Positions 2,760 to 13,860 of a stretch of 64,000 nucleotides of DNA are shown piece by piece. The stretch covers positions 89-64,088 of the forward strand of contig CAMZKV010000018.1 of the NCBI GenBank assembly GCA_947311445.1. Direction: 5' to 3'. The notes beneath the pieces are model-generated. The model was not told the origin of the DNA. It saw nothing but the letters and a program-made list of their open reading frames with translations, and did not search any database. The translations under genes were made by a program, and so were the position numbers. The number at the start of each line of letters is the position of its first letter. Within the stretch, counting starts at the first letter, position 1. The DNA is from an uncultured Chlorobiota bacterium (GTDB lineage Bacteria; Bacteroidota; Bacteroidia; Bacteroidales; JAADGE01).

Positions 2760-3317
2760 ATGAAAAAGAGTTACGACAAAGATATTACTATTTTTAATAA
2801 CATTAAAAGCAATAATCAAAAAGCTTTAAATGAACTGTTTAATAAATATTACCATGTTCTTTGTGAATACTCATTTTTGATTACAAATGATAAAGCAGGC
2901 TCTGAAGAAATTGTTGCTGATATTTTTGCGAATATTTGGATTAATAGAGATAAAATATATATAAAAAAGAATGTAAGAGCATATCTTTTCAAGAGTACAA
3001 AAAATTTAGCAATCTCTTACCTTAGAAAAAATAAAAATATTTTTGAGAAAATAGAAGAAGAAAATCTCATTAATACAAATAGTAATTCTCCCGACCAATA
3101 TATTATTAATAGAGAAAAGCAACTAAAAATAAAAGATATTTTGGATATTATTCCTAAAAGGAGCAGAGAAATATTTATTCTTCACCGTTTTAGTGGTCTA
3201 AAATATCAGGATATTGCAGAAACATTAGATATTTCAGTGAAAACAGTTGAGAAACACATATCAAAGGCATTAAGAGTATTGCGAGAAACTTTTCAAGATA
3301 AATCTCAAATAATTTAA
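2760..3317 (+). CDS. RNA polymerase sigma-70 factor, ECF subfamily
   Basis: 185 aa. Region 2-like EEIVADIFANIW and region 4 HTH YQDIAETLDISVKTVEKHISKALRVLR. Size and layout are typical of Bacteroidota ECF sigmas. Confidence 0.85.
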   Translation: MKKSYDKDITIFNNIKSNNQKALNELFNKYYHVLCEYSFLITNDKAGSEEIVADIFANIWINRDKIYIKKNVRAYLFKSTKNLAISYLRKNKNIFEKIEEENLINTNSNSPDQYIINREKQLKIKDILDIIPKRSREIFILHRFSGLKYQDIAETLDISVKTVEKHISKALRVLRETFQDKSQII

Positions 3318-3333
3318 TATTTTTAACCCAACA

Positions 3334-3365
3334 AAAAAAGAGAAAGCAGTTAACTTTCTCTTTTA
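3334..3365. terminator. Bidirectional intrinsic terminator between convergent genes
   Basis: aaaaaagAGAGAAAGcagttaaCTTTCTCTtttt: an 8-bp stem flanked by an A-run and a T-run. It lies between the sigma factor stop and the stop of the 153-aa minus-strand gene. Confidence 0.5.
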
Positions 3366-3384
3366 TATATATTTTTTAAATATA

Positions 3385-3846
3385 TTACTGATTTTTTCCA
3401 ACAAAAGATAGGATGCCTACTGCACAAGTTTTACTTCTGCCTTTCCCAGGTTTAAATCTTATAGAAACATAGTAAACTCCGGATCTTTTACAAATAAAGT
3501 CAAACTTATCGGTATTACTTTTTTCAGTTGAGTTCCATGGTTTTGTCTCTGGATGTCTGCTGTCAAAAAGAGTTAATTTTACATCATTTCTACTTTTTAT
3601 AGGAGTACATAATATAAAACGATATCTAGTTCCTCTGTTTAAAACAACAGGCCATTTTGTTCCGTTAATACTTCTACTTGATCTTACAGCCCTTAATTTT
3701 GTATTAAAGTCTCGAAGATAGATAGCATTACCACCTTGTCTTGCACATTTATATACTCTTTGCTGCTTACATTGTGCTTTTGTTTCTTCTTGCGGTGCAA
3801 AGATAAATAAACTTGTTATTGCTATAAGAATTGCTATTTTCTTCAT
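3385..3846 (-). CDS. Secreted cysteine-containing hypothetical protein (153 aa)
   Basis: N-terminal signal peptide MKKIAILIAITSLFIFAPQEETKAQ and six Cys residues. Its ATG overlaps the stop of the upstream gene by 1 nt (TAATG on the coding strand). I did not recognise a family. Confidence 0.6.
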   Translation of the reverse strand: MKKIAILIAITSLFIFAPQEETKAQCKQQRVYKCARQGGNAIYLRDFNTKLRAVRSSRSINGTKWPVVLNRGTRYRFILCTPIKSRNDVKLTLFDSRHPETKPWNSTEKSNTDKFDFICKRSGVYYVSIRFKPGKGRSKTCAVGILSFVGKNQ

Positions 3847-4742
3847 TATAGTGAGATTAAATTGTTACGAATTTTAATTATTTTATTTGAAATTTTATCT
3901 AAATCTTCTTGTGTGTATTCTATTGTTGTGTGTTCTCCCGGAATTAATAACGTTATATCTCCCTCTTTTATTATTTCATCTTCTCCGTCAATTATTTCAA
4001 TTTTAACATTGTCATACAATGTTGCTAATTCATGAAACTGCTTGTTCATTCCATCGAAACGTGCTTTTTCATTAAACATATCCAATACCTCTAATAGTTC
4101 TTTCAAAATATCTTTTTGTCCTACTATTATCTCTTCGGTTTTTTTATCGCTTTTAAATTGATTAACTTTTGCAGCGAGATATTGTCCTTCTAACCAAACC
4201 CCCGTAATCATTAATGCACTAAGATCACTTCTTCTTGTTTCTCTAAGGTGTGCATCCATATCATGATAGCTGGTAACAGAAAGATACATAAGTTTCTGCA
4301 TATCCGTGCTGTTGGTTGCTAATCTTTTAAGAGTCTGAAAATCAAAGAATTGGTCAACGTCTAGTGCATCTGCAATTCTTTTAATTGATGTTAAATATTC
4401 AACAATTGCATTTTTTCTTTTGTAAACATTTAAATATCCTAAGTCGGCACTTAACATTCCAAGCCCAAGTGCTTTTTCAAAATTTGCATCAAAGTCTCCT
4501 GCTGTTTCTGTTGGTACTAAATTCTTTTTTGAATATGGTACCTTTAAATCTTCAATTGTTGCTGCCATTTCAATTGGAGATGGGAACATTTCAATTAAAG
4601 CATTAATCTTTTCAGGATCAATTTCAACTCTGTTTATTTCTTCATTTGCATCAGGTCCGTCAATAACATCGCTACTGTCATCACCTCCGCAAGAACTAAA
4701 TATTGCAATTATCGAAAGTAAAAAAAATATCTTTTTTACCAT
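3846..4742 (-). CDS. Hypothetical lipoprotein (298 aa)
   Basis: Lipoprotein signal with lipobox Cys (LLSIIAIFSSCGGDD). The rest looks largely helical. I did not recognise a family. Confidence 0.65.
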   Translation of the reverse strand: MVKKIFFLLSIIAIFSSCGGDDSSDVIDGPDANEEINRVEIDPEKINALIEMFPSPIEMAATIEDLKVPYSKKNLVPTETAGDFDANFEKALGLGMLSADLGYLNVYKRKNAIVEYLTSIKRIADALDVDQFFDFQTLKRLATNSTDMQKLMYLSVTSYHDMDAHLRETRRSDLSALMITGVWLEGQYLAAKVNQFKSDKKTEEIIVGQKDILKELLEVLDMFNEKARFDGMNKQFHELATLYDNVKIEIIDGEDEIIKEGDITLLIPGEHTTIEYTQEDLDKISNKIIKIRNNLISL

Positions 4743-4863
4743 AATTATTTTATTTTCATGCTTAATAATTATCCAAAAGTATTAAAAAAAAAAATATCTA
4801 AAAAATATACTTGAATATTTTTACATTTTTATTTTATTAATCGTCAATACTTAAACTTTTATT

Positions 4864-7800
4864 TTACTTCTTTTTAAAACTTATATTTCCAAAAAAGTCA
4901 ATAAGTTTTCGCAAATGATCGTAATATAAAGGTATGTATAATAACAATGACATTGCCCAAATAAATAGGACATTGAACCAAAAAGTACCATAGAACTTAC
5001 CCATAAAATATTTATTTGGCGAATAAAAATGTGCTCTTATACCAATAAAGTTTGTAGCGTCTGGTTCTAAATAAATAGGTTCTTCTTGTCTTATTAATTT
5101 GTCTTTAAATCTTAGAATTTTATTTTTTTCATATATATTTCTTACAATATCGTCTAAATGTTCATTATGGAATTTGTTTCTAAATTGAACATAATAGTTT
5201 GGCTTTCTTTTGTCTTGAAATTCAATAAGTTCTTCTTTAAGTTCATTTGCACTTGAATATATTGCCAAATAAAACTTTTTCCATATTTCTAATTTGTCTA
5301 ATAAAATATAGCCATGTTCTTCAATATCATAATCTTTTATATTCAAAGAATTAATAAGATTTTCAGGAATAACTAGGGAGTCTTTTAATGTTGCATTATC
5401 GGCTTTTAGTACATCAAAATTATTATAATAGACATCAAAAGGAATTTGTTTTACTCCCTGTCCTGTTTTATATTTTTTTAATGTTTTTATTATTTTAAAG
5501 ATTTCTTTATTTTCTTTTGAAATTTCGTTTCTTAAAAGAGCAAGTTCCATTTTTTGAATTTCAATAATGGAGTCTTTGTCTCCAACTTTATCATTAATTT
5601 CATCTTGTAATATTTCAAAAGATTCAATGCTTTCGGATAGTTTTGGAATAAGTTTATCTTGTTTAAAGTTTGCAGTGCTTTTTATTTGATTATATATGAA
5701 GTATTGTTTTTCAAATTTGTTTTCTTTAAATTGCTCTACCATTAATGCTTCGTATGCCCATCTGGAAACCATAACATCTGCAATAAGCGGAACTTTATCC
5801 ACACTGCCAATTAGTCTGTTTAGTTTGTTAAAGCTGAACATTGCTCCCCCGAGTGCCATTTGAGGAATCATTAATAATGGTATTAAAATGTATATTGTTA
5901 CTGCGGAATTAAATGCTGATGAAATGTTTAATCCCATAAAATTGGCAAATACAAAGGTTGAAAATAAAACTATCCAATATTCAAAATACATTCCTTGAAT
6001 TCCTAAAATTGAGTTTCCTATTAAAACAAAAAGTATTGCTTGTATAGCTGACAATGATGTTAATATAATGATTTTTGCAGTTAAATAAGAGGAACGACTT
6101 AGGTGTAGGAACTTTTCTCGTTTTAGAATTTTTCTGTCTCTGAAAATTTCTTCTGCACTTACTGTAAGTCCAAGGAAAAGTGCAACTACAATACTCATAA
6201 AAATGTATGGTGGAATGTTTTCATTGTCAAAAAAGACATATGTTGATGATGTGGGGTCTGCAATATATCTAATTAAAAATGCTAAGATAAATCCAAGTAG
6301 TGGTGCTTCTAGTAAGTTAAGAACTATGTATTGTGTATTACTAATTTTTGAGAGTAAATCTCTTGTTAGGAATATTTTAAATTGATTAAACCAGCCTGGT
6401 ATGTTCAAATCTGCTGGTGGCTCATCGTTTATTTCTTCAATTTCTTCTTTCGCAACTTTTTCTTGATAGTGTTTTTCCCATTCAATAGCCGATATTTTTC
6501 GCTTATCTGTATATTTTCCAAATTCATCTACAACTTCTGCTTCAATAATGTCAAAAATTAATTCAGGAGTAACATTACCACATACACCACATTCTCCAAC
6601 CTCAGAATTTATTTGGTTGTCAATAGTTTTAAAATGTATAACAGCATCAACCGGATTTCCATAATATACCATATATCCACCAGTATCTAGAATTAGCATT
6701 CTGTCAAACATTTTATAAATGTCTGATGATGGTTGGTGTATTACTACAAAAATAAGTTTGCCTTTTAGTGTTAATTCACTTAAAAGTTCCATAACATTTT
6801 CAGAATCTCTTGATGATAATCCCGAGGTAGGCTCATCTACAAAAAGAATTGATGGTTCTCTTATTAGTTCAAGTGCAATATTTAGTCTTTTTCGTTGTCC
6901 TCCGCTGATTGTTTTGTTCATCGGATTACCAACTTTAAGATCTTTTTTTTCGTAAAGACCAAGGTCTTTTAGTGTTTTATGTACTAGTTTTACAAGTTCA
7001 TCTTCTTTTTTGTTTTTAAAACAAAGTTTTGCATTATAGTATAGGTTCTGGAAAACTGTAAGTTCTTCAATAAGTAGGTCGTCTTGCGGAATGTATCCTA
7101 TAACTCCTTCTATTTTGTCTTTATCATGGTGTAAATCAATTCCGTTAATTTTTACACTTCCTTCGGAGGGTGTTGTAATTCCTGAAAGTGTGTTAACCAT
7201 TGTGGTTTTTCCGGAGCCGCTTGCTCCCATAATTCCAACTAATTTTCCATGGCTAACAGAGAAACTAATACCTCTTATACCAATATCTCCGGTTTTAAAT
7301 TTGTATTGGAGATTTGTAACTTTAAATGAGAGATTTGAGATTTTTAAATCTTTCATAAAAGTTGCAACTACATCACTATAGTGTATTGGTTTTCCTTTTG
7401 GTAGTTTTAGTATACTTCCGGGAGCAAATGGGTAAATGCGATTATTATATACTGTTGTGCTGTTTAGGAAAACATCTTGTTTTCCTGTATATTTTAGAAA
7501 GAACAAGTCTGCACTTTTTAAATGTAAAATTATTACACTTCCATGAAGGCTTTCTGAATTTATATGTTGTGCTTTAAGTTGGAGGTGTTCTCTGTCATGT
7601 ATTGTTAAAATAAATTCAGAATCTAAGTCTCTGTAATCGTCTTTTATAACAAAGTTTTCAATTTCTTTGTATTCTTCTTTTTTTATATGGAAAGCATCAG
7701 AAATAACAAAAATAATTTCCATACGTTGTTCGGTAAGTTTCTTTTCTGCATTTACTAATTCGAAAAGACGTGCTAAAACAATTACTTTTTGTTTATGGCT

Positions 7801-8118
7801 TAGGGTTTTGTTAATTTTTCTACAAATTCCTATAACTCTAACAGAATCAAGTACATTAACTTGTCCTTCTTCTGCTCCTCTTCTTACTTCTTTATCTCCT
7901 TGTTTTGCTTCTCTTTTCTTTTTAGCTCTTTGTTTCTTTTTTTCCTCTTTTGCAATATGATTAATGAACAAATCCATATATTCACTCACTTGAGATTTAC
8001 TCAATTGAGATTCGAGAAAAGTTTTAACAAACTTTTCCTCTTGCTCTACAACTCCTTCGTCTTGTTTTGCTATAATTGCAAAAAGTTGCATTAATGCTTT
8101 TAGTATTTGTTCACTCAT
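4864..8118 (-). CDS. Fused ABC transporter ATP-binding/permease protein (ABCG/ABC-2 type) with TerB-like N-terminus and C-terminal extension
   Basis: Walker A GASGSGKTT, signature ISGGQRKRLNIALELI, Walker B ILFVDEPTSGLS, H-loop VIHQPS, then multiple TM helices (ABC-2 membrane type). The N-terminus resembles TerB/DjlA-N (ILKALMQLFAIIAKQDEGVVEQEEKFV ... KQKVIVLARLFELVNAEKKLTEQRMEIIFVISDAF). Confidence 0.85.
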   Translation of the reverse strand: MSEQILKALMQLFAIIAKQDEGVVEQEEKFVKTFLESQLSKSQVSEYMDLFINHIAKEEKKKQRAKKKREAKQGDKEVRRGAEEGQVNVLDSVRVIGICRKINKTLSHKQKVIVLARLFELVNAEKKLTEQRMEIIFVISDAFHIKKEEYKEIENFVIKDDYRDLDSEFILTIHDREHLQLKAQHINSESLHGSVIILHLKSADLFFLKYTGKQDVFLNSTTVYNNRIYPFAPGSILKLPKGKPIHYSDVVATFMKDLKISNLSFKVTNLQYKFKTGDIGIRGISFSVSHGKLVGIMGASGSGKTTMVNTLSGITTPSEGSVKINGIDLHHDKDKIEGVIGYIPQDDLLIEELTVFQNLYYNAKLCFKNKKEDELVKLVHKTLKDLGLYEKKDLKVGNPMNKTISGGQRKRLNIALELIREPSILFVDEPTSGLSSRDSENVMELLSELTLKGKLIFVVIHQPSSDIYKMFDRMLILDTGGYMVYYGNPVDAVIHFKTIDNQINSEVGECGVCGNVTPELIFDIIEAEVVDEFGKYTDKRKISAIEWEKHYQEKVAKEEIEEINDEPPADLNIPGWFNQFKIFLTRDLLSKISNTQYIVLNLLEAPLLGFILAFLIRYIADPTSSTYVFFDNENIPPYIFMSIVVALFLGLTVSAEEIFRDRKILKREKFLHLSRSSYLTAKIIILTSLSAIQAILFVLIGNSILGIQGMYFEYWIVLFSTFVFANFMGLNISSAFNSAVTIYILIPLLMIPQMALGGAMFSFNKLNRLIGSVDKVPLIADVMVSRWAYEALMVEQFKENKFEKQYFIYNQIKSTANFKQDKLIPKLSESIESFEILQDEINDKVGDKDSIIEIQKMELALLRNEISKENKEIFKIIKTLKKYKTGQGVKQIPFDVYYNNFDVLKADNATLKDSLVIPENLINSLNIKDYDIEEHGYILLDKLEIWKKFYLAIYSSANELKEELIEFQDKRKPNYYVQFRNKFHNEHLDDIVRNIYEKNKILRFKDKLIRQEEPIYLEPDATNFIGIRAHFYSPNKYFMGKFYGTFWFNVLFIWAMSLLLYIPLYYDHLRKLIDFFGNISFKKK

Positions 8119-8216: not shown

Positions 8217-8606
8217 TTAGTCAATTGTGTAGCTTATCTGTTCAAAAGGAACTTCAACAATGTCTTCATATTCTTCTCCTGCCTCTTCCATGTCTTCATC
8301 ATCATCAGGAAAATGCCATCTTACAAGTACATCTTTGCCATCGTCAGCCATATCTTCTAGTTTCAAGAGTATGTCTAATAAAAGTTTTGAAGATGCGGTA
8401 TTAAAATATTCTAACTTAATGTTTAAAATGGTTTTTTCTAATGGAGATTCTGAGTATTCTTCTAGCCATTCTAATATGGGTTCATAAAACGATACAACAT
8501 CTTCGGGAAGAGATCTTCCTGAGATTTCCATAATTGGGTTATCTGGATTTGCATCTAAAATAACTTGTGGAGTATCGTCTGTACCTTCGATTCTTATTAC
8601 TTGCAT
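8217..8606 (-). CDS. SiaC-like regulatory phosphoprotein (DUF1987)
   Basis: 129 aa. The pattern I recall for DUF1987/SiaC is TPQVILDANPDNPIMEISGRSLPED ... FYEPILEWL ... LEYFNTASSK, and this protein matches it. It has an acidic C-terminal tail and sits 9 nt downstream of the SiaB-like gene. Confidence 0.8.
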   Translation of the reverse strand: MQVIRIEGTDDTPQVILDANPDNPIMEISGRSLPEDVVSFYEPILEWLEEYSESPLEKTILNIKLEYFNTASSKLLLDILLKLEDMADDGKDVLVRWHFPDDDEDMEEAGEEYEDIVEVPFEQISYTID

Positions 8607-8615
8607 AATTATTAT

Positions 8616-9194
8616 TTATTTTGTTCTTGAAATTGTAGATGTTAATACAAAGTATGATTTTTTTTCATTAATATCCAAAAAAGAATATATTAATTTTTGT
8701 TCTGTTTTTCTTACAATGTCAATAAAACCTAGTCCTGCACCGCCTTTTTCAGATAGTCGTCCTTTTTTAATTTTTTCTTTATATAATTTTTTTAGAGACA
8801 TTTTACTTCCAGAGTTTATTGCTTCGAGTTTTATTTTTAAGTTGGGAATTTCTTTTTTATTAATAGAGTTTCCTGTTGTTATTGTATATTCATTTTTAGT
8901 TTTACTCATAAAAAATATTCCTTGTCCATCGGTTGGAGAATTTTTGTCAATCTTTTCTTCTGAGTGTTTACCTATGTTTTGCAAAGATTCAATCATAACA
9001 TGAAAAACTCTTCTTTTAAGAGAATTAGATTCATTGTCAATAGCTATATGGCTTTCAGCTAGAGAGCTAAATACTTTTGTTATTTCATGAGAAATTTCAC
9101 CTTCGTAAGCAAAACTGACATTATTATTTTTCATTTTTGTATAAAAGTCATAAACGAAATCAAGGTCAATGTTATTTTTATTTGTATCTGCCAT
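8616..9194 (-). CDS. SiaB-like protein kinase (GHKL/anti-sigma-kinase-like, DUF6272)
   Basis: 192 aa. It has the ATP-lid-like motif EKGGAGLGFIDIVRKT near the C-terminus and the N-box-like motif IESLQNIGKH. It is positioned between the PP2C and DUF1987 genes, as in Sia cassettes. Confidence 0.8.
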   Translation of the reverse strand: MADTNKNNIDLDFVYDFYTKMKNNNVSFAYEGEISHEITKVFSSLAESHIAIDNESNSLKRRVFHVMIESLQNIGKHSEEKIDKNSPTDGQGIFFMSKTKNEYTITTGNSINKKEIPNLKIKLEAINSGSKMSLKKLYKEKIKKGRLSEKGGAGLGFIDIVRKTEQKLIYSFLDINEKKSYFVLTSTISRTK

Positions 9195-9205
9195 GAAACT
9201 TGTTT

Positions 9206-11794
9206 TTAAAATTCAATTCCTAAAAATAGAACGTCGTCAATTTGTTTGTAATTTTTTTTCCATTCATCAAATTGGGCTACAAAAAAATCGTGAAATTGGT
9301 TCATAGTAAAATCTTTATTTTCTATTATTTCTTTTTGCATTCTTCCTGCTTGATACTTTCTTCCGTCTTTTCCTCCAATTTGATCTGGAAAACCATCGGT
9401 AAATATAAAAATTTTATCGTTCTTCTCAATATTAATTTTATGAGTTGTAAATTTTTTTTCTTTTTGTCCTGGTCTTCCTCGCATTGGTTTTCCTCCAACA
9501 GCCATCCTGTCACCTTTAAATCTTGAAATTTCGGAGCCTCTTAAAAGTAAAAGAGGGTTATGTGCTCCGGCATATTCTAAGATGTTTTCTTTGTAATTAA
9601 TTTTACATAGGGCAATATCCATGCCATCCCGTGCTTTAGAATCTGGGGAATCTTGTTTGAGAGTTCTTCTTACTCTAAAATGTAATTTGTCAAGTATTTC
9701 TCCTGCTGTTTGGTTTTCGTCTTCATTCACAATGCTGTTAAGAGAGAAGTAGCCAATAAATGAAAGCAAAGTTCCCGGGACTCCATGTCCGGTGCAATCT
9801 ATTGCTGCGATATAAATTTCATTTTCTGTAACATAGAACCATGGTAAATCCCCACTAACAACATCTCTTGGTTTATAGAACATAAAAGATTTTGGCAGGT
9901 ATCTTTTTATAATTTTAAAATCGGGGACAATTGCAGATTGAATTCTTTGTGCATAATTTATACTTTCTGTAATGTTTTTGTTCTTTTTTTCAATTTCTTG
10001 CTCAATTTCTTTGCTTTGTGTGATGTCGTGAACAACAAAGAGGAATGTTATGATTTCCCCATTTTCATCTGTTTCGGGTATGGAGTTAAATTGAACTATT
10101 CGTTTTGTATTGTTAATCTTGAAAATTGTTTCTTCTTGAATTTCTACACCTGCAATATTTGTCTTTTTTATAATTTCATTAAAAAAATCTGCAACTTCCT
10201 GATTTAGTTCAGCAGTATTTATGTTTCTTCCAATTAATTCATTGCTTGCTTTTCCAATAAATTTTTCGGTCATAGGGTTTGCATAGAAGAAGTTACCTGT
10301 TTGTCCGACTCTAATAATCATGTCAAGACTATTTTCAGAAAGAGCTTGCATTTCACTGCTTAATCTTTTTGCCGTTTCTGCATCTTTTCTTACTGTTATA
10401 TCTCTTGTATTAAAAATAATTCCGCCAATTGCTGGGTTTTCAGAGAGGTTTCTGCCTCTTGTTTCTAGCCAAACTTTTTCTTCGTTTTTATTTATGTATT
10501 GATATTCAAATGTTTTTTCAGAATCAGGCTTTATAATTAGATCATTAAAAGCATTTTGTAATATATTGCCTCCTCTTTCAAAACGATTAATTCCTAGCAT
10601 TTCTTCGGGGTTAAAGCCTAATATGTTCTTAACTGATGGGCTTACGTATTGTACTATTCCTTTTTTATCGTATATGGTTATAACTTCTGATGCGTTTTCT
10701 AATAGTGCATGTATTCTTTTTTGTCCTGTTTCAACTTCAAATATTTTAGCTGCTAATTCTTTGTTTGATTTTTCAAGCTCAATTTGAGTTAGTTTCATTT
10801 GCTTCGCATTTTCACGAAGGTCATTTTCGTTTTTCTGTAATTTATTTGTTAATTTTTGTGCTTCATCTAGTAATTTTTTTGTTCTTTCATTGGCTTTGAA
10901 ATTAAATAGGGTTTGTCCAATAATTTCCTCTAATTCAGTTAATAAAGAGATTGTACTTTTAGGGTATTCTTGTTGTAAACTTGCAATTTCAATAACCCCT
11001 TGTATCTTTTCATCTCCGGTAAGAGGAAGAATTAGTATAACACCGGGTTTTTTTGTGCCTATTAATCCTGAGCTTATTGAAAAATAATCTTCAGGAATAT
11101 TTTGTCTGTAAATATAATTTTTTTCATAGGCTGCCTGACCAATTAAGCCTTGTCCAATTTTAAAACTTTGGGTTATTTTTTTTTCTCTTTTATAGGCATA
11201 AGAAAAAACATTTTGTAGTTCTTGTTTTTCTTCATTAAATAAATAAAAGGAACCTTGTATTGATTTTGTGTATTCTATTATATTTATAAGAATGTCTTTT
11301 ATTAAAGGATTAAGGTCGTTATGTTTACGTAAGATGTCAGCTATTAACTCTTTGCCTTTTGATATTCCTGAAATTTCTTGTTCTTCTTTATATTTTGCAA
11401 TGAAGTTTTTTTTCAGTAATAGTAAAGATTTATTTGTTTTTGTGTTTTGAAATGAGAGGTTTTTTTCGGGGTTATAGTTGTCTTTCCCTATTTCTTCTGC
11501 AAATTGTGTAAATTGCGAAATAATTTTTTTCTGATTTTCAATTTCATCAAAAAGAGATGATTGAATTTTTCCTACTTTTTCTGAAATAAAAAAGGCAACA
11601 ATTGCTAATACAAAAGGTGCTAAATCAATAATGAAATTAAGAGGGTTATCAGTATGTATTAATTTGATTTGTTCTAAACTAAATGAGTATTCTCCTGATA
11701 ATATTTGAAAAGACCAAGCTGTTAACGGAAAAAAAAGTCCGAAAAAAAAGCCGTAAAAAGCATACTTTATTATATTTGAATTTAATTTGCTCAC
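9206..11794 (-). CDS. Membrane-anchored GAF-PAS-PAS SpoIIE/PP2C protein phosphatase (SiaA-like role)
   Basis: Two N-terminal TM helices. GAF region (GQGLIGQAAYEKNYIY ... ILPLTGDEKIQGVIEIAS), a coiled coil, and two PAS-like regions. C-terminal SpoIIE/PP2C motifs: RDVVSGDLPWFY, AAIDCTGHGVPG, DGMDIALC, IFIFTDGFPDQ. Confidence 0.85.
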   Translation of the reverse strand: MSKLNSNIIKYAFYGFFFGLFFPLTAWSFQILSGEYSFSLEQIKLIHTDNPLNFIIDLAPFVLAIVAFFISEKVGKIQSSLFDEIENQKKIISQFTQFAEEIGKDNYNPEKNLSFQNTKTNKSLLLLKKNFIAKYKEEQEISGISKGKELIADILRKHNDLNPLIKDILINIIEYTKSIQGSFYLFNEEKQELQNVFSYAYKREKKITQSFKIGQGLIGQAAYEKNYIYRQNIPEDYFSISSGLIGTKKPGVILILPLTGDEKIQGVIEIASLQQEYPKSTISLLTELEEIIGQTLFNFKANERTKKLLDEAQKLTNKLQKNENDLRENAKQMKLTQIELEKSNKELAAKIFEVETGQKRIHALLENASEVITIYDKKGIVQYVSPSVKNILGFNPEEMLGINRFERGGNILQNAFNDLIIKPDSEKTFEYQYINKNEEKVWLETRGRNLSENPAIGGIIFNTRDITVRKDAETAKRLSSEMQALSENSLDMIIRVGQTGNFFYANPMTEKFIGKASNELIGRNINTAELNQEVADFFNEIIKKTNIAGVEIQEETIFKINNTKRIVQFNSIPETDENGEIITFLFVVHDITQSKEIEQEIEKKNKNITESINYAQRIQSAIVPDFKIIKRYLPKSFMFYKPRDVVSGDLPWFYVTENEIYIAAIDCTGHGVPGTLLSFIGYFSLNSIVNEDENQTAGEILDKLHFRVRRTLKQDSPDSKARDGMDIALCKINYKENILEYAGAHNPLLLLRGSEISRFKGDRMAVGGKPMRGRPGQKEKKFTTHKINIEKNDKIFIFTDGFPDQIGGKDGRKYQAGRMQKEIIENKDFTMNQFHDFFVAQFDEWKKNYKQIDDVLFLGIEF

Positions 11795-11805: not shown

Positions 11806-13860
11806 TTATTTAAAGCTATTTAACCACATAGAATATTTCTTGTCTTTTTCAGTATCATATTTTGCTTTTATTAAGTTTTCCTTTTTAATATACTTTTTAA
11901 GATCTTGTGTGGTTTTTTTTATTTCGATATTTTTTGTAGCTAATAAATTTTCTTGTTCTTGTGTTTTTTCGGAAAGAATCTTATTTTTTTCTTCAAATTC
12001 TTGGTATTTGCTTATGTCTTCAGCTAAAACAAGAATTCGTACTATAGTTCCTTTTTCATTTTTAATTGGAGAGAAATGTGTGTTTACTTTTAAAATACTT
12101 TTGTCTTTTAATGTAAAAGTTAATATTTGTGTAATAGATTTGTCTGATTTAACATCTTTCACTATTTTGTCTATGAGTTTATCATCTTTTGAATCAACTA
12201 TGTCTGAAAGTGGTCTATTGCTAATTTCAGAAGGAACTATGTTTAAAGCCTTAAGAAGTCGTTGATTTGCAGAAGTTATTTTTCCTCTTGTGTTTAGTTC
12301 AATTTTAATTAAAACATTATTTACAGCTGATATAATATTTGCTATTTCAGTTTCAGATTTTCTTAATTCTTGTTGCGTTTGTTTTAATTGTCGTACTTTT
12401 TCAGACATTTCAGAATCTCTGTAAGCTAGTTCAGTTGATTTTTTTTGTGTTTCTTCCAGCAAAACAGTGGTTCTGTCTGTAATTTTTGTTGTTTCAAGAG
12501 TAGAGGCAATATCTTCGGCAATAGTTTCCATAAAATCTGCTTCGTCTTTTGTGAACTTGTAGAAAGATGCAATTTCTATAACTCCAAGAATTTTTTCGTC
12601 TGTTTTAAGAGGTACTATTAGTATGTTTGTTGGAGGTGCTTCTCCAAGGCCGGATTCAATATCCATATAATCATCTGGAACATTATTTAGCCAAATAGTA
12701 TTTTTTTCTAATGCACACATTCCAATTAAACCTTCTCCAACAGGTATTTTTTTATTTATTGATTTTATTCTGTCGTATGCAAATGCAGATATTAAATTTA
12801 GATAAGGCTGATTAGTTTCGTCGTTAATAATAAAAAAGCCTCCTTGTGCAACATTGAAAAATTTCACTAGGTTTTTTATGGATGCTTCTGCTAATTTGTT
12901 TATTGACGAAGATGATTCTCTAAGTATGTCATTAAATTTTGCTTGTCCTTCTGAGAACCATTGTCTGATTCTTTCTTCTTCAAGTCTTATTTTGTTTAAT
13001 TTAATATTCTCTTTTAGTTTGTCTCTTAGCTTAACTAATGAACTTTCTAATACTACATCTTTGTTGTAATCTTCAAATTGTACATCATAATTGTCATGTA
13101 CTAACTGAATTACAAATTTTGAAATCTCATTAGTTTTATAATATAGTTTGTTTAAATTAGAATGTACATTAGAAAAATCGTCATTAAAATTAGATATTTT
13201 ATGTATTGGTTTCCCTACGTAAATATTTGTAATTGCATCTTCAACAGTACTAATTGGTTTAACGAATTTATTTTTTACAAAGAAATAGATTAAAAGACTA
13301 AAAGTAATATAAAATAATATGGCTGTATAATGGATGAATTTTAGGATGAATATATCATCTTTATATTCTATTGCATATGCTTTTTCAATTTCCTCATGCA
13401 TTAGTTTAAGGGTCTTATACTTTTCGTTTATATTTTTTAAAATAGTTTCATTGTCTTTTATTCTTAATCGTTGATTCAAAGTATAATAATATTCATCCCA
13501 ACTTGTTTTAATAGTTTTTAATTTTTCTAATATTTCTCCGGATGGTTTAGTAAATATAAATGCTTCATCTTTTTCAGAAAAGTTACCCCCGTTTATAAGA
13601 ATAGACAAATTGTTCTTATATAGTTTTGCAGCATCAAAAATTTCTTTTTTAAAATTTGATGATTTTTTTGAAAGAGTATGTACTTCACCTAACAGCAAAG
13701 TGTTTGTTCTAATAAGTTTTGCAGAGTTTAAATTATTTTGCTCTGAATTTATATATAAGTCAGATAAAATAAAATGCAAAACACTAACAATAATTATTCC
13801 TAGAAGTAAAAATCCGGCTTTATGTAATGATAAAGTTTTTTTCAAAACCATAGTGTACAA
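11806..13860 (-). CDS. Membrane sensor protein with periplasmic helical domain, GAF and PAS, and no recognisable output domain
   Basis: TM helix, then a helical extracytoplasmic region of about 150 aa (PilJ/NarX-like layout), then a second TM helix. This is followed by a coiled coil, a GAF region (GEGLIGMCALEKNTIW ... IVPLKTDEKILGVIEIAS), another coiled coil, a PAS-like region and a coiled-coil tail. Its stop is 11 nt upstream of the PP2C gene. Confidence 0.75.
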   Translation of the reverse strand: MYTMVLKKTLSLHKAGFLLLGIIIVSVLHFILSDLYINSEQNNLNSAKLIRTNTLLLGEVHTLSKKSSNFKKEIFDAAKLYKNNLSILINGGNFSEKDEAFIFTKPSGEILEKLKTIKTSWDEYYYTLNQRLRIKDNETILKNINEKYKTLKLMHEEIEKAYAIEYKDDIFILKFIHYTAILFYITFSLLIYFFVKNKFVKPISTVEDAITNIYVGKPIHKISNFNDDFSNVHSNLNKLYYKTNEISKFVIQLVHDNYDVQFEDYNKDVVLESSLVKLRDKLKENIKLNKIRLEEERIRQWFSEGQAKFNDILRESSSSINKLAEASIKNLVKFFNVAQGGFFIINDETNQPYLNLISAFAYDRIKSINKKIPVGEGLIGMCALEKNTIWLNNVPDDYMDIESGLGEAPPTNILIVPLKTDEKILGVIEIASFYKFTKDEADFMETIAEDIASTLETTKITDRTTVLLEETQKKSTELAYRDSEMSEKVRQLKQTQQELRKSETEIANIISAVNNVLIKIELNTRGKITSANQRLLKALNIVPSEISNRPLSDIVDSKDDKLIDKIVKDVKSDKSITQILTFTLKDKSILKVNTHFSPIKNEKGTIVRILVLAEDISKYQEFEEKNKILSEKTQEQENLLATKNIEIKKTTQDLKKYIKKENLIKAKYDTEKDKKYSMWLNSFK

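What the first reader, a model, noticed from the sequence alone, without database searches (positions are those of the whole stretch)
4864..8118. ABCG-type half transporter with a TerB-like N-terminus, a beta-rich pre-NBD module and a post-TMD extension of about 270 aa ending in an extra TM helix
Canonical ABC-2/ABCG exporters consist of an NBD and a 6-TM domain. This protein adds three things.
1. A TerB/DjlA-N-like helical region, split by a K/E-rich linker (KEEKKKQRAKKKREAKQGDKE).
2. A beta-rich segment of about 100 aa (HGSVIILHLKSADLFFLKYTGKQDVFLNSTTVYNNRIYPFAPGSILKLPKGKPI). Its layout recalls FHA-like beta-sandwiches, but I cannot see the canonical FHA Arg/Ser/His residues.
3. About 270 hydrophilic, partly coiled-coil residues after the last ABC-2 helix (after VSRWAYEALMVEQF; roughly nt 4990-5740), followed by one more TM helix (FWFNVLFIWAMSLLLYIPLYY).

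FHA-regulated ABCG-like exporters do exist (mycobacterial Rv1747), which makes phospho-dependent regulation conceivable next to a Thr-phosphoprotein gene.
Basis: partly seen in the sequence, partly recalled or inferred. Interest (0 to 1): 0.62.

Follow-up and report, generated by a model that had tools for sequence, protein, structure and literature searches.

The report
Switch-linked ABCG exporter with periplasmic insert
This gene encodes a bacterial relative of the human ABCG lipid and drug pumps with two extra cytoplasmic domains and a large periplasmic domain inserted inside its membrane part, and it always sits next to a phospho-switch, so it is probably a signal-controlled envelope exporter of an unstudied kind.

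Summary
The 1084-aa ORF (4864-8118, minus strand) is real and intact. It is an ABCG/White-type half transporter with fully canonical ATPase motifs.

- **TerB-like N-terminus:** confirmed, and split by a disordered K/E-rich linker.
- **Beta-rich module:** it folds with high confidence into an FHA-like sandwich, and FHA domains fill the top Foldseek ranks. It fails every sequence test for FHA and has no conserved GR or SxxH, so it is best called a pseudo-FHA.
- **"Post-TMD extension plus extra TM helix":** this is misread. Only five TM helices and the re-entrant helices precede it. It is a 246-aa periplasmic insertion in the TM5-TM6 loop, and the last helix is the canonical TM6.

The architecture is found in at least 580 species genomes, and the sampled relatives are nearly all Bacteroidota. 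The gene order PP2C phosphatase, SiaB-like kinase, SiaC-like phosphoprotein, ABC, lipoprotein, small secreted protein holds in about 60-66 of 62-66 informative loci.

My best reading is that a Sia-type partner switch without a diguanylate cyclase gates this exporter through its N-terminal module. The periplasmic insert would work with the two exported proteins. Substrate and direct binding are untested.

`genome search` and `fetch from genomes` were closed.

The parts
4864..8118 (-). Whole ORF, 1084 aa: TerB-like domain, pseudo-FHA, NBD, TM1-TM5, periplasmic insert, TM6
7645..8118 (-). Residues 1-158: TerB-like helical domain with two D-(E/G)-G...E / A-D-R-K...E half-motifs
   Evidence: Pfam PF05099 at 28.6 bits on the fragment. 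Seven helices in the AF2 model. Invariant K18 Q19 D20 G22, E120, R132.
7855..7950 (-). Residues 57-88: K/E-rich linker of variable length, inserted within the TerB-like domain
   Evidence: About 48% gaps and 14% identity in 117 homologues. pLDDT 47-54.
7369..7626 (-). Residues 165-250: pseudo-FHA beta-sandwich
   Evidence: AF2 pLDDT 92-95. Foldseek top hits are all FHA domains: prob about 1.0, E 0.02-0.5, TM-score normalised to target 0.4-0.5. No Pfam FHA hit in 69 members. hhalign against 65 true FHA domains gives Prob 3.3%.
6619..7326 (-). Residues 265-500: ABC ATPase domain with canonical Walker A, Q-loop, signature ISGGQRKR, Walker B DE and H-loop IHQPS
   Evidence: PF00005 at E 3.8e-33. 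All motif residues are invariant in 69 sequences.
6562..6597 (-). Residues 508-519: invariant G-E-C-x-x-C-G-N-x-x-P-E motif in the NBD-TMD connector
   Evidence: C510 and C513 are present in 69 of 69 sequences.
5725..6393 (-). Residues 576-798: elbow helix, TM1-TM5a and re-entrant helices 5b/5c of the ABCG-type membrane domain
   Evidence: PF01061 matches 579-794. AF2 helices. Foldseek finds ABCG5/8, ABCG2, ABCG1, ABCG16/25, Cdr1 and Pdr5 at E 1e-4 to 1e-3 over about 230 columns.
4987..5724 (-). Residues 799-1044: periplasmic insertion in the TM5-TM6 loop. It has three helices of about 40 residues (801-842, 848-885, 932-971), a variable subdomain (886-931) and a conserved beta-hairpin region next to the membrane (about 975-1044).
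   Evidence: Hydropathy and positive-inside analysis. AF2 pLDDT mostly 85-96. No Pfam hit. No free-standing homologues.
4867..4986 (-). Residues 1045-1084: TM6 and a basic cytoplasmic tail
   Evidence: Sixth and only remaining hydrophobic helix. Helical in the AF2 model, whose pTM is 0.86. TIGR00955 profile positions 577-617 are left unmatched before the insert.
8217..8606 (-). SiaC-family phosphoprotein with the phospho-acceptor Thr kept (YFNTASS)
   Evidence: PF09345 at 131 bits. Aligns to P. aeruginosa SiaC 6KKO at E 8e-14, with NT(A/S)S aligned.
8616..9194 (-). SiaB-family protein kinase
   Evidence: NF038262 at 157 bits against a cut-off of 85; PF19788.
9206..11794 (-). Membrane GAF-PAS-PAS-SpoIIE (PP2C) phosphatase, the SiaA analogue
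3846..4742 (-). Lipoprotein of 298 aa with no family assignment; conserved downstream partner
   Evidence: Invariant lipobox Cys18 in 64 sequences. No Pfam or PDB hit. Present in 61 of 62 loci.
3385..3846 (-). Small secreted Cys-containing protein of 153 aa with no family assignment; conserved downstream partner
   Evidence: Present in 60 of 62 loci.
3336..3364 (.). Bidirectional terminator hairpin closing the minus-strand gene string
   Evidence: It is the only minus-strand terminator-like site between 3200 and 14100.

Best explanation
The ORF encodes one half of a homodimeric ABCG/White-type ABC exporter. It belongs to a large, uncharacterised family whose sampled members are nearly all Bacteroidota.

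Shown:
- Domain order is TerB-like helical domain (split by a disordered K/E-rich linker), an FHA-shaped beta-sandwich that lacks the FHA sequence signature (pseudo-FHA), a catalytically canonical NBD, TM1-TM5 with re-entrant helices, a 246-aa insertion, and TM6.
- The gene is fourth in a conserved string: PP2C phosphatase, SiaB-like kinase, SiaC-like phosphoprotein, ABC, lipoprotein, small secreted protein.

Inferred from topology: the insertion lies in the periplasm, in the loop that forms the extracellular roof of eukaryotic ABCG pumps.

Inferred mechanism:
- The Sia-type partner switch has no diguanylate cyclase here and uses the exporter as its output.
- When the sensor phosphatase dephosphorylates the SiaC-like protein, that protein docks on the cytoplasmic TerB/pseudo-FHA platform. 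This changes NBD dimerisation and ATPase activity.
- Phosphorylation of its conserved Thr by the SiaB-like kinase releases it.
- On the outside, the helical insert of the dimer works with the lipoprotein and the small secreted protein. They would act as acceptor or adaptor for the exported substrate, most likely a lipid-like or other envelope component.
For: ABCG identity:
- TIGR00955 at E 1e-75 over residues 249-823.
- ABCG and PDR chains are top hits by sequence and by fold.
- All ATPase motifs are invariant.

Topology:
- Five hydrophobic helices come before the 284-aa hydrophilic segment and one comes after.
- The K/R-rich loop 654-682 and the C-terminal tail are on the inside.
- AF2 of residues 575-1084 has pLDDT 85.9 and pTM 0.86, with helix order TM1a, 1, 2, 3, 4, 5a, 5b/c, insert, TM6.
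- The last 40 positions of the ABCG profile are unmatched before the insert.

N-terminal module:
- TerB matches.
- The AF2 model of the N-terminal region (residues 1-270, pLDDT 84.1 overall) gives pLDDT 92-95 for the beta module.
- The top 31 Foldseek hits are all FHA domains.
- There is no FHA signature.

Spread:
- More than 120 full-length homologue clusters.
- 983 clusters at 50% identity carry the N-terminal module, and every full-length one is 980-1160 aa.
- At least 580 species genomes.

Synteny:
- SiaC-like in 65 of 66 loci, SiaB-like in 66 of 66, PP2C in 66 of 66.
- Lipoprotein in 61 of 62, small protein in 60 of 62.
- The median gap from SiaC to the ABC gene is 45 nt.
- There is no internal minus-strand terminator.

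Switch competence: the SiaC-like protein keeps the N-T-x-S site aligned to SiaC T68. In P. aeruginosa, unphosphorylated SiaC binds its output and T68 phosphorylation blocks binding (PMC8457831).

Co-variation after removing the NBD+TMD distance (partial Mantel):
- Insert with lipoprotein r=0.46; insert with small protein r=0.43 (p about 5e-4).
- Insert with SiaC r=0.10; insert with SiaB r=-0.10.
- Pseudo-FHA with SiaC r=0.35; pseudo-FHA with SiaB r=0.30.
- Pseudo-FHA with lipoprotein r=0.05.
Against: - No binding, transport or expression data exist, and the substrate is a guess.
- The identity of TM6 rests on topology and the AF2 model. Sequence tests did not show it: a membrane-domain profile with the insert deleted finds nothing in the PDB, and TIGR00955 does not extend into TM6 on the insert-deleted protein.
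- The Foldseek alignments are about 230 columns long. That is too short to include TM6.
- FHA fold matches have weak E-values (0.02-0.5).
- Partial Mantel tests are known to be over-optimistic on related sequences. TerB also co-varies with the lipoprotein (r=0.35), which the two-compartment picture does not predict.
- The synteny sample is the 80 loci closest to the query out of at least 580.
- One relative (L069) has the SiaB-like kinase but no SiaC-like gene. One (L050, labelled Chitinophagales) has neither SiaB/C nor the two downstream genes, only SpoIIE phosphatases nearby.
- A candidate promoter box lies before the lipoprotein gene, so the last two genes may also be transcribed separately.
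Confidence: 0.6

Rival explanations
1. First reader's reading. The beta module is a working FHA domain that reads a phospho-threonine, on the phosphorylated SiaC-like protein or on the transporter's own linker. The pump would then be regulated as Rv1747 is by PknF.
For: - The fold is FHA-like.
- The module co-varies with the SiaC-like and SiaB-like proteins.
- A Thr-phosphoprotein gene is directly upstream.
- Rv1747 shows that FHA-regulated ABCG-like pumps exist (PMC3138270, listed).
- Position 176 is K or R in 44 of 69 sequences, and T211 is present in 61 of 69.
Against: - None of the 69 members hits Pfam FHA or YscD-type FHA models, even at E<=10.
- The family profile finds no FHA chain in the PDB.
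- hhalign against 65 verified FHA domains gives Prob 3.3%.
- True FHA domains keep invariant S, H, D, S, G, T and near-invariant G-R. The module has no conserved G-R or S-x-x-H.
- In the characterised Sia system, the unphosphorylated SiaC is the binding form.
- No Hanks-type kinase is present in the cassette.
Confidence: 0.12
2. The transporter is a mechanotransducer rather than a pump. ATP hydrolysis would move the periplasmic helical insert to activate or release the lipoprotein and small secreted protein, as FtsEX and MacB-type systems do. No substrate would cross the membrane.
For: - The periplasmic domain is large, rigid and helical.
- Two periplasmic partners are strictly conserved and co-vary with it.
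- No substrate-related biosynthetic genes are visible in the cassette.
Against: - The membrane domain has the ABCG exporter fold, and from general knowledge the characterised members of that fold move substrates.
- Known mechanotransmitters use the MacB/FtsX fold, with the periplasmic domain between TM1 and TM2 (general knowledge, not tested here).
- The part of the insert next to the membrane, near the expected exit of the translocation path, is its most conserved part.
Confidence: 0.18
3. The Sia-type switch and the transporter are only co-transcribed. The switch would act on another target, such as a protein encoded elsewhere. The N-terminal TerB/pseudo-FHA module would sense something else, such as a metal, the membrane state or a different partner.
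For: - L069 lacks the SiaC-like gene, and L050 lacks both the SiaB-like and SiaC-like genes, yet both keep the full transporter architecture.
- From general knowledge, TerB domains have been linked to metal and stress responses.
- No direct interaction evidence exists.
Against: - The SiaC-like gene abuts the transporter gene in 65 of 66 loci, with a median gap of 45 nt.
- No other candidate output domain is present in the cassette.
- The eLife authors propose that DUF1987 proteins modulate adjacent proteins.
- The pseudo-FHA module co-varies with the SiaC-like and SiaB-like proteins but not with the lipoprotein.
Confidence: 0.15
4. The topology is: a complete 6-TM domain, then a cytoplasmic or extracytoplasmic tail of about 270 aa, then a seventh anchoring helix.
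For: - The Pfam ABC2_membrane model is matched almost end to end (positions 2-208 of 211) before the hydrophilic segment.
- Sequence tests could not show that the last helix is homologous to ABCG TM6.
Against: - Only five hydrophobic helices precede the segment.
- AF2 shows TM1a, 1, 2, 3, 4, 5a and then short re-entrant helices, exactly as in ABCG structures.
- The ABCG full-length profile TIGR00955 still has about 40 positions unmatched at that point.
- A seventh helix would put the basic C-terminal tail outside the cell, against the positive-inside rule.
Confidence: 0.04

Closest known systems
Eukaryotic ABCG half transporters and PDR pumps (ABCG1, ABCG2, ABCG5/G8, plant ABCG16/25, Cdr1, Pdr5; White family TIGR00955)
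   Same: - NBD before the membrane domain, with an IHQPS H-loop and the ISGGQ signature.
- The same membrane-domain fold, with re-entrant helices after TM5 and an outward-facing loop before TM6.
- A Cys-containing motif ahead of an NP(A/x)(D/E)-like stretch in the NBD-TMD connector. The comparison with ABCG rests on memory; the motif itself is seen.
   Different: - It is bacterial.
- It scores far below the TIGR00955 cut-off (255.6 against 736 bits).
- It carries about 260 extra N-terminal residues (TerB-like plus pseudo-FHA).
- Its TM5-TM6 loop is about 246 aa, built of three helices of about 40 residues each. In the eukaryotic pumps the loop is a few tens of residues (from memory).
Rv1747 of Mycobacterium tuberculosis, with its kinase PknF
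   Same: - A bacterial ABCG-like half transporter with a cytoplasmic FHA-type regulatory module directly before the NBD.
- It is encoded next to a Ser/Thr phosphorylation system (PMC3138270, PMC8339232, listed).
   Different: - Rv1747 has two canonical phospho-Thr-binding FHA domains, a phosphorylated linker and a Hanks-type kinase.
- Here there is one FHA-shaped domain without the FHA signature, a TerB-like domain, a partner-switch kinase of the SiaB type, and a giant periplasmic insert.
- No comparison with the Rv1747 sequence was made.
SiaABCD partner-switch system of Pseudomonas aeruginosa
   Same: - A PP2C phosphatase with sensor domains.
- A SiaB-family kinase (above the NCBIfam cut-off).
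- A DUF1987/SiaC-family protein with the aligned N-T-x-S phospho-site.
- The output gene lies directly downstream of the SiaC gene.
   Different: - There is no GGDEF protein. The position of SiaD is taken by the ABC transporter.
- The SiaC-like and SiaB-like proteins score below the equivalog cut-offs (81.5 against 150 bits; 67 against 225 bits).
- The phosphatase has GAF and PAS input domains, and a second output-less GAF/PAS protein lies upstream.
Pseudo-FHA domains such as the N-terminal domains of the type VII secretion ATPase EssC (PDB 5FWH)
   Same: An FHA-like sandwich attached to a membrane ATPase and lacking the phospho-Thr-binding residues. The description of EssC is from memory. 5FWH is Foldseek hit 24.
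   Different: A different ATPase class and no detectable sequence relationship. The partner of the module here is unknown.

Membership tests
ABCG/White-type ABC half transporter (type V exporter fold) | NBD precedes the membrane domain in one polypeptide, with intact Walker A, Q-loop, signature, Walker B and H-loop | tested here: met
   PF00005 matches 282-432 ahead of PF01061 at 579-794. All motif residues are invariant in 69 sequences.
ABCG/White-type ABC half transporter (type V exporter fold) | Membrane domain with the ABCG fold: elbow helix, TM1-TM5, re-entrant helices, outward loop, TM6 | tested here: met
   AF2 helix order. The top 50 Foldseek hits are all ABCG or PDR chains, and 26 matches reach E<=1e-3. 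Superposition of TM6 itself could not be checked, because no coordinates were available and the alignments are about 230 columns.
ABCG/White-type ABC half transporter (type V exporter fold) | Score above the curated cut-off of the White subfamily model TIGR00955 | tested here: not met
   255.6 bits against a cut-off of 736.35. It is a distant relative, not a member of the curated subfamily.
FHA domain (PF00498) | Beta-sandwich of the FHA fold | tested here: met
   The top 31 Foldseek PDB hits are all FHA domains, with prob 0.66-1.00 (mostly near 1.0), TM-score normalised to target mostly 0.4-0.5 for single-domain chains, and rmsd 2.8-5 A over 75-84 columns for most. E-values are only 0.02-0.5. 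Model pLDDT is 92-95.
FHA domain (PF00498) | Detectable sequence or profile similarity to FHA | tested here: not met
   None of the 69 members hits any FHA model at E<=10. The family profile finds no FHA chain in the PDB. hhalign against 65 verified FHA domains gives Prob 3.3%.
FHA domain (PF00498) | Conserved phospho-Thr-binding residues: G-R after strand 3, S-x-x-H before strand 5, and N in the S-x-N-G-T loop | tested here: not met
   True FHA domains keep S, H, D, S, G, T invariant and G-R near-invariant. The module's invariant residues are L198, F207, Y210, G212, L218, N219, I228, Y229, G234, P244 and D249, with no conserved G-R or S-x-x-H. Exact structural equivalences could not be derived without coordinates.
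TerB domain (PF05099) | Profile match above the gathering score | tested here: inconclusive
   28.6 bits against 24.4 on the isolated N-terminal fragment, but 20.2 bits in the full-length protein. PF05099 is precomputed for most of the 120 homologues. Foldseek did not list TerB structures among its top 50.
SiaABC-type partner switch (context of the gene) | DUF1987/SiaC-family protein with the phospho-acceptor Thr, a SiaB-family kinase and a PP2C phosphatase encoded together | tested here: met
   PF09345 at 131 bits. NF038262 at 157 bits against a cut-off of 85. SpoIIE domain present. N-T-A-S aligns with N-T-S-S of P. aeruginosa SiaC.
SiaABC-type partner switch (context of the gene) | Diguanylate cyclase (SiaD) as the output | tested here: not met
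   No GGDEF domain is found in any ORF of the cassette. The ABC transporter occupies the downstream position in 65 of 66 loci.
Rv1747-type FHA-regulated ABC transporter | Canonical FHA domains and a cognate Hanks-type Ser/Thr kinase | tested here: not met
   No canonical FHA. No Pkinase domain in the neighbouring ORFs.

The most novel reading that the evidence does not exclude
In Bacteroidota, a SiaC-type partner switch would directly gate an ABC exporter instead of a diguanylate cyclase. The unphosphorylated SiaC-like protein would dock on a TerB/pseudo-FHA platform and control dimerisation of the half transporter. The exporter's 246-aa periplasmic tower, an orphan lipoprotein and a small secreted protein would together form a previously unrecognised, signal-controlled route. 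That route would move a lipid-like envelope component out of the inner membrane.
Probability: 0.3. Interest if true: 0.8.

Novelty: new variant of a known kind. Interest (0 to 1): 0.6.

Why it matters
ABCG pumps are studied almost only in eukaryotes, and bacterial relatives with known regulation are few; Rv1747 is the example found here.

This family is found in at least 580 species genomes, nearly all Bacteroidota among those sampled, and its architecture is uniform. It adds a new cytoplasmic control module and a very large domain in the outward loop that caps the substrate exit of ABCG pumps.

Its fixed position after a Sia-type switch gives a concrete, testable answer to an open question. 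What do DUF1987/SiaC partner switches control in bacteria where no diguanylate cyclase follows them?

The family also links an ABC pump to two orphan periplasmic proteins. That points to an unstudied envelope export or remodelling pathway in a phylum whose envelope biology is poorly mapped.

No paper in the searched library mentions DUF1987 outside Pseudomonas or describes this transporter family. Cultured carriers exist for experiments, namely Anaerophaga thermohalophila DSM 12881 and Plebeiibacterium sediminum.

Tried and rejected
1. Sequence proof that the last helix is ABCG TM6.
   - A 14-sequence profile of the membrane domain with the insert removed found nothing in the PDB, even at E<=10.
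   - TIGR00955 on the insert-deleted protein stopped at profile position 557.
   - The TM6 assignment therefore rests on topology and the AF2 model.
2. Sequence detection of FHA. All of the following were negative:
   - a Pfam scan of the fragment;
   - Pfam scans of all 69 members;
   - PDB profile searches;
   - hhalign against a verified FHA alignment. They were accepted only because all carry precomputed PF00498.
3. Regex searches for canonical FHA proteins in the 80 loci found none.
4. Assigning the insert to a known domain. There is no Pfam hit. A search with the insert alone found only truncated copies of the same family.
5. Assigning the lipoprotein and the small secreted protein. There are no Pfam or NCBIfam hits. 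PDB profile searches gave only coiled-coil noise or nothing.
6. `genome search` and `fetch from genomes` were closed. The window's own genome could not be searched for paralogues, FHA proteins or GGDEF proteins, and the taxonomic spread could not be sampled evenly.
7. Model coordinates are not exposed. Residue-level superposition on FHA or ABCG structures, and the orientation of the three long helices, could not be determined.
8. The sigma-70 promoter scan was uninformative: 62 sites against 58 expected.

Full report
**1. What is there**

The minus strand of the window carries an uninterrupted 1084-codon ORF at 4864-8118.
- Pfam finds ABC_tran at residues 282-432, ABC2_membrane at 579-794 and a weak TerB match at 8-153.
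- The ABCG/White subfamily model TIGR00955 matches residues 249-823 at E 1e-75, though far below its curated cut-off.
- The best PDB sequence hits are PDR pumps, with ABCG1, ABCG5 and ABCG25 further down among other ABC transporters.
- Walker A, the ISGGQRKR signature, Walker B D-E and the IHQPS H-loop are invariant in 69 family members.

The protein should therefore be an active ATPase of the ABCG type.

**2. The N-terminal 260 residues**

*TerB-like domain*
- On the isolated fragment, TerB scores 28.6 bits, above its 24.4 gathering score.
- PF05099 is precomputed for most homologues.
- I predicted residues 1-270 with AlphaFold2 from a 69-sequence alignment built from the window and related loci. 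The model has mean pLDDT 84.1 and pTM 0.78.
- Residues 3-158 form seven helices.
In the family it varies in length and is barely conserved.

*Beta module*
- Residues 170-246 form a compact module with pLDDT 92-95.
- In Foldseek against the PDB, the top 31 hits are all FHA domains: MEK1, CEP170, Rad53 FHA1, KIF1A, aprataxin, RNF8, EssC. DgcB appears a little lower (rank 43).
- Probabilities are mostly near 1.0 (0.66-1.00 across these hits), TM-scores normalised to the target are mostly 0.4-0.5 for single-domain chains, and rmsd is 2.8-5 A over 75-84 columns for most hits.
- E-values are weak (0.02-0.5) and none reaches 0.001.

*Sequence tests for FHA all fail*
- The fragment gives no Pfam hit.
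- None of the 69 members hits any FHA model, even at E<=10.
- The family profiles find no FHA chain in the PDB.
- hhalign against an alignment of 65 proteins that all carry PF00498 gives a probability of 3.3%.
- True FHA domains keep an invariant S-x-x-H, D, S, G-T and a near-invariant G-R.
- The module's conserved residues are different. They are L198, F207, Y210, G212, L218-N219-G220, R227-I228-Y229, G234 and the basic loop K-L-P-K-G-K-P.

I call it a pseudo-FHA domain. The fold is FHA-like and the phosphate-reading signature is absent.

**3. The 'C-terminal extension' is an insertion in the TM5-TM6 loop**

*Topology*
- Hydropathy finds five hydrophobic helices: 598-616, 635-653, 683-712, 716-734 and 739-757.
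- A 284-residue hydrophilic stretch follows, and then one more helix at 1046-1064.
- With the NBD in the cytoplasm, the K/R-rich loop 654-682 (8 K+R) and the basic C-terminal tail (5 K+R in 20 residues) fall inside, and the long stretch falls outside.

*Model of residues 575-1084*
- AlphaFold2 from 69 sequences gives pLDDT 85.9 and pTM 0.86.
- The helix order is elbow helix, TM1, TM2, TM3, TM4 and TM5a.
- A low-confidence loop follows, and then short helices ending in 784-798.
- Next come three long helices (801-842, 848-885, 932-971) and a small subdomain (886-931).
- Short helices and two beta hairpins (1001-1010, 1035-1044) follow, and then the final membrane helix.
- The top 50 Foldseek hits are all ABCG or PDR chains, aligned over their membrane domains: ABCG5/8, ABCG16, ABCG2, Cdr1, ABCG25, ABCG1 and Pdr5. 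Twenty-six matches reach E<=1e-3, over about 230 columns.

*Conclusion*
- In those structures, TM5 is followed by re-entrant helices, an outward loop and TM6.
- The ABCG profile TIGR00955 still has its last 40 or so positions unmatched where the hydrophilic stretch begins.
- The protein therefore has six membrane helices, not seven.
- Residues 799-1044 are a periplasmic insertion in the loop that roofs the exit of ABCG pumps.
- I could not show the TM6 equivalence by sequence. I had no coordinates for a superposition, so this step rests on topology and the model.

*Properties of the insert*
- It has no Pfam family.
- It has no free-standing relatives.
- Its membrane-proximal part (about 975-1044) is well conserved.
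- The subdomain 870-930 is missing in about half of the family.

**4. Spread of the architecture**
- More than 120 clusters of full-length homologues (56-97% identity, about 1015-1190 aa) were listed. The few that carry an organism name are labelled Bacteroidales, Bacteroidia or Bacteroidota, apart from one partial sequence labelled Chlorobi.
- A profile of the N-terminal module finds 983 clusters at 50% identity. Every full-length hit is 980-1160 aa, and the shorter ones look like fragments.
The 80 best are nearly all Bacteroidales in the broad sense. They include Draconibacterium, Saccharicrinis, Salinivirgaceae, Williamwhitmania and Rikenellaceae. They also include the cultured Anaerophaga thermohalophila DSM 12881 and Plebeiibacterium sediminum.

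The N-terminal module thus seems to exist only in this transporter.

**5. Context**
- Upstream on the same strand lie a SiaC-family protein (PF09345, 131 bits), a SiaB-family kinase (NF038262, 157 bits against a cut-off of 85) and a membrane GAF-PAS-PAS-SpoIIE phosphatase.
- Further upstream lies an output-less GAF-PAS protein.
- Downstream lie a 298-aa lipoprotein with an invariant lipobox Cys and a 153-aa secreted protein with conserved cysteines. Neither has a family or PDB match.
- Among the 80 related loci with enough flanking DNA, the SiaC-like gene lies directly upstream in 65 of 66. The SiaB-like gene and the PP2C gene are each present in 66 of 66.
- The lipoprotein is present in 61 of 62 and the small protein in 60 of 62. 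The median gap from SiaC to the ABC gene is 45 nt.
- The only minus-strand terminator-like hairpin between 3200 and 14100 is at 3336-3364, after the last gene.
- The SiaC-like protein aligns to P. aeruginosa SiaC (6KKO, E 8e-14), with its N-T-A-S on the N-T-S-S that holds T68.

Exceptions are informative:
- L069 has a TPR-SpoIIE phosphatase and a SiaB-like kinase but no SiaC-like gene.
- L050, labelled Chitinophagales, has two propeller/Y_Y_Y-SpoIIE phosphatases on the other strand and none of the other partners.

The sensor part varies and the transporter stays.

**6. How it most likely works**

In Pseudomonas, unphosphorylated SiaC binds the helical stalk of the cyclase SiaD through N67/T68/S69 and promotes the active dimer. 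Phosphorylation of T68 by SiaB blocks binding. The authors suggest that DUF1987 proteins in general modulate adjacent proteins (PMC8457831).

Here no GGDEF protein is present, and the transporter sits where SiaD would be. I infer the following steps:
- The transporter is the output of the switch.
- The dephosphorylated SiaC-like protein docks on the TerB/pseudo-FHA platform and alters NBD dimerisation.
- The periplasmic insert cooperates with the lipoprotein and the small secreted protein.

A rough co-variation test fits this two-compartment picture. It uses partial Mantel correlations on 55 loci, after regressing out the NBD+TMD distance.

| Pair | r | p |
|---|---|---|
| Insert, lipoprotein | 0.46 | about 5e-4 |
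| Insert, small protein | 0.43 | about 5e-4 |
| Insert, SiaC-like | 0.10 | 0.12 |
| Insert, SiaB-like | -0.10 | 0.87 |
| Pseudo-FHA, SiaC-like | 0.35 | about 5e-4 |
| Pseudo-FHA, SiaB-like | 0.30 | 0.001 |
| Pseudo-FHA, lipoprotein | 0.05 | 0.27 |

Such tests are over-optimistic on related sequences, and TerB also correlates with the lipoprotein (r=0.35). I count this as weak support only.

The substrate is unknown. The ABCG fold and the envelope partners suggest a lipid-like or other envelope component, but this is a guess.

**7. Comparison and novelty**
- The protein works like an ABCG pump and belongs to that fold class, but not to the curated White subfamily.
- It resembles Rv1747 in having an FHA-type module before the NBD and a phosphorylation system next door. 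It fails the defining features of that system, which are canonical FHA domains and a Hanks kinase.
- Its context is a Sia-type switch that fails the SiaD criterion.
- The library searches found no paper on this family and none on DUF1987 outside Pseudomonas.
- Earlier notes of this scan on other genomes reach similar conclusions. They agree with my reading, which I had formed beforehand, and are not independent evidence.
- I rate it a new variant of known kinds: an ABCG exporter with new accessory domains, and a Sia-type switch with a new output.

**8. Limits**
- No coordinates, no multimer prediction and no expression data were available.
- The synteny figures come from the 80 closest loci only.

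Noticed in passing
window 6562-6597 (-), residues 508-519: The motif G-E-C-x-x-C-G-N-x-x-P-E in the NBD-TMD connector is invariant in 69 of 69 family members, both cysteines included. In a homodimer, two CxxC pairs could form a metal or redox site. This was not examined further.
   Followed up: partly
window 4774-4781 (-): TACTTTTG, a match to the Bacteroidota -7 promoter motif TAnnTTTG, lies 32 nt before the ATG of the lipoprotein gene, in the 121-nt gap after the ABC stop codon. The last two genes may have their own promoter in addition to read-through.
   Followed up: no
L069:6711-9971 and L050:3973-10882: Relatives keep the transporter but change the sensor. L069 has a TPR-SpoIIE phosphatase and a SiaB-like kinase with no SiaC-like gene. 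L050 (labelled Chitinophagales) has two Reg_prop/Y_Y_Y-SpoIIE phosphatases on the opposite strand and an OmpA-family gene upstream. L050 has no SiaB/SiaC and no lipoprotein or small-protein pair.
   Followed up: partly
window 11806-13860 (-): A 684-aa membrane protein with GAF and PAS domains but no output domain lies directly upstream of the GAF-PAS-SpoIIE phosphatase. It recurs, at lower identity, in many related loci.
   Followed up: no
window 3846 (-): The lipoprotein ORF (3846-4742) and the 153-aa ORF (3385-3846) share nucleotide 3846, so the stop and start codons overlap. This suggests translational coupling.
   Followed up: no
L040, L001, L003 (record titles): Contigs carrying this cassette are labelled 'Thiohalospira sp.' (a gammaproteobacterium) and 'uncultured Chlorobi bacterium', while the other sampled carriers are labelled Bacteroidota lineages. 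These look like binning or labelling errors. L001 is 95-100% identical to the window across the cassette proteins.
   Followed up: no
window 2760-3317 (+): An ECF-type sigma factor gene converges on the end of the cassette and shares the bidirectional terminator at 3336-3364. No anti-sigma gene is adjacent, and it is not conserved next to the cassette in the other loci.
   Followed up: no
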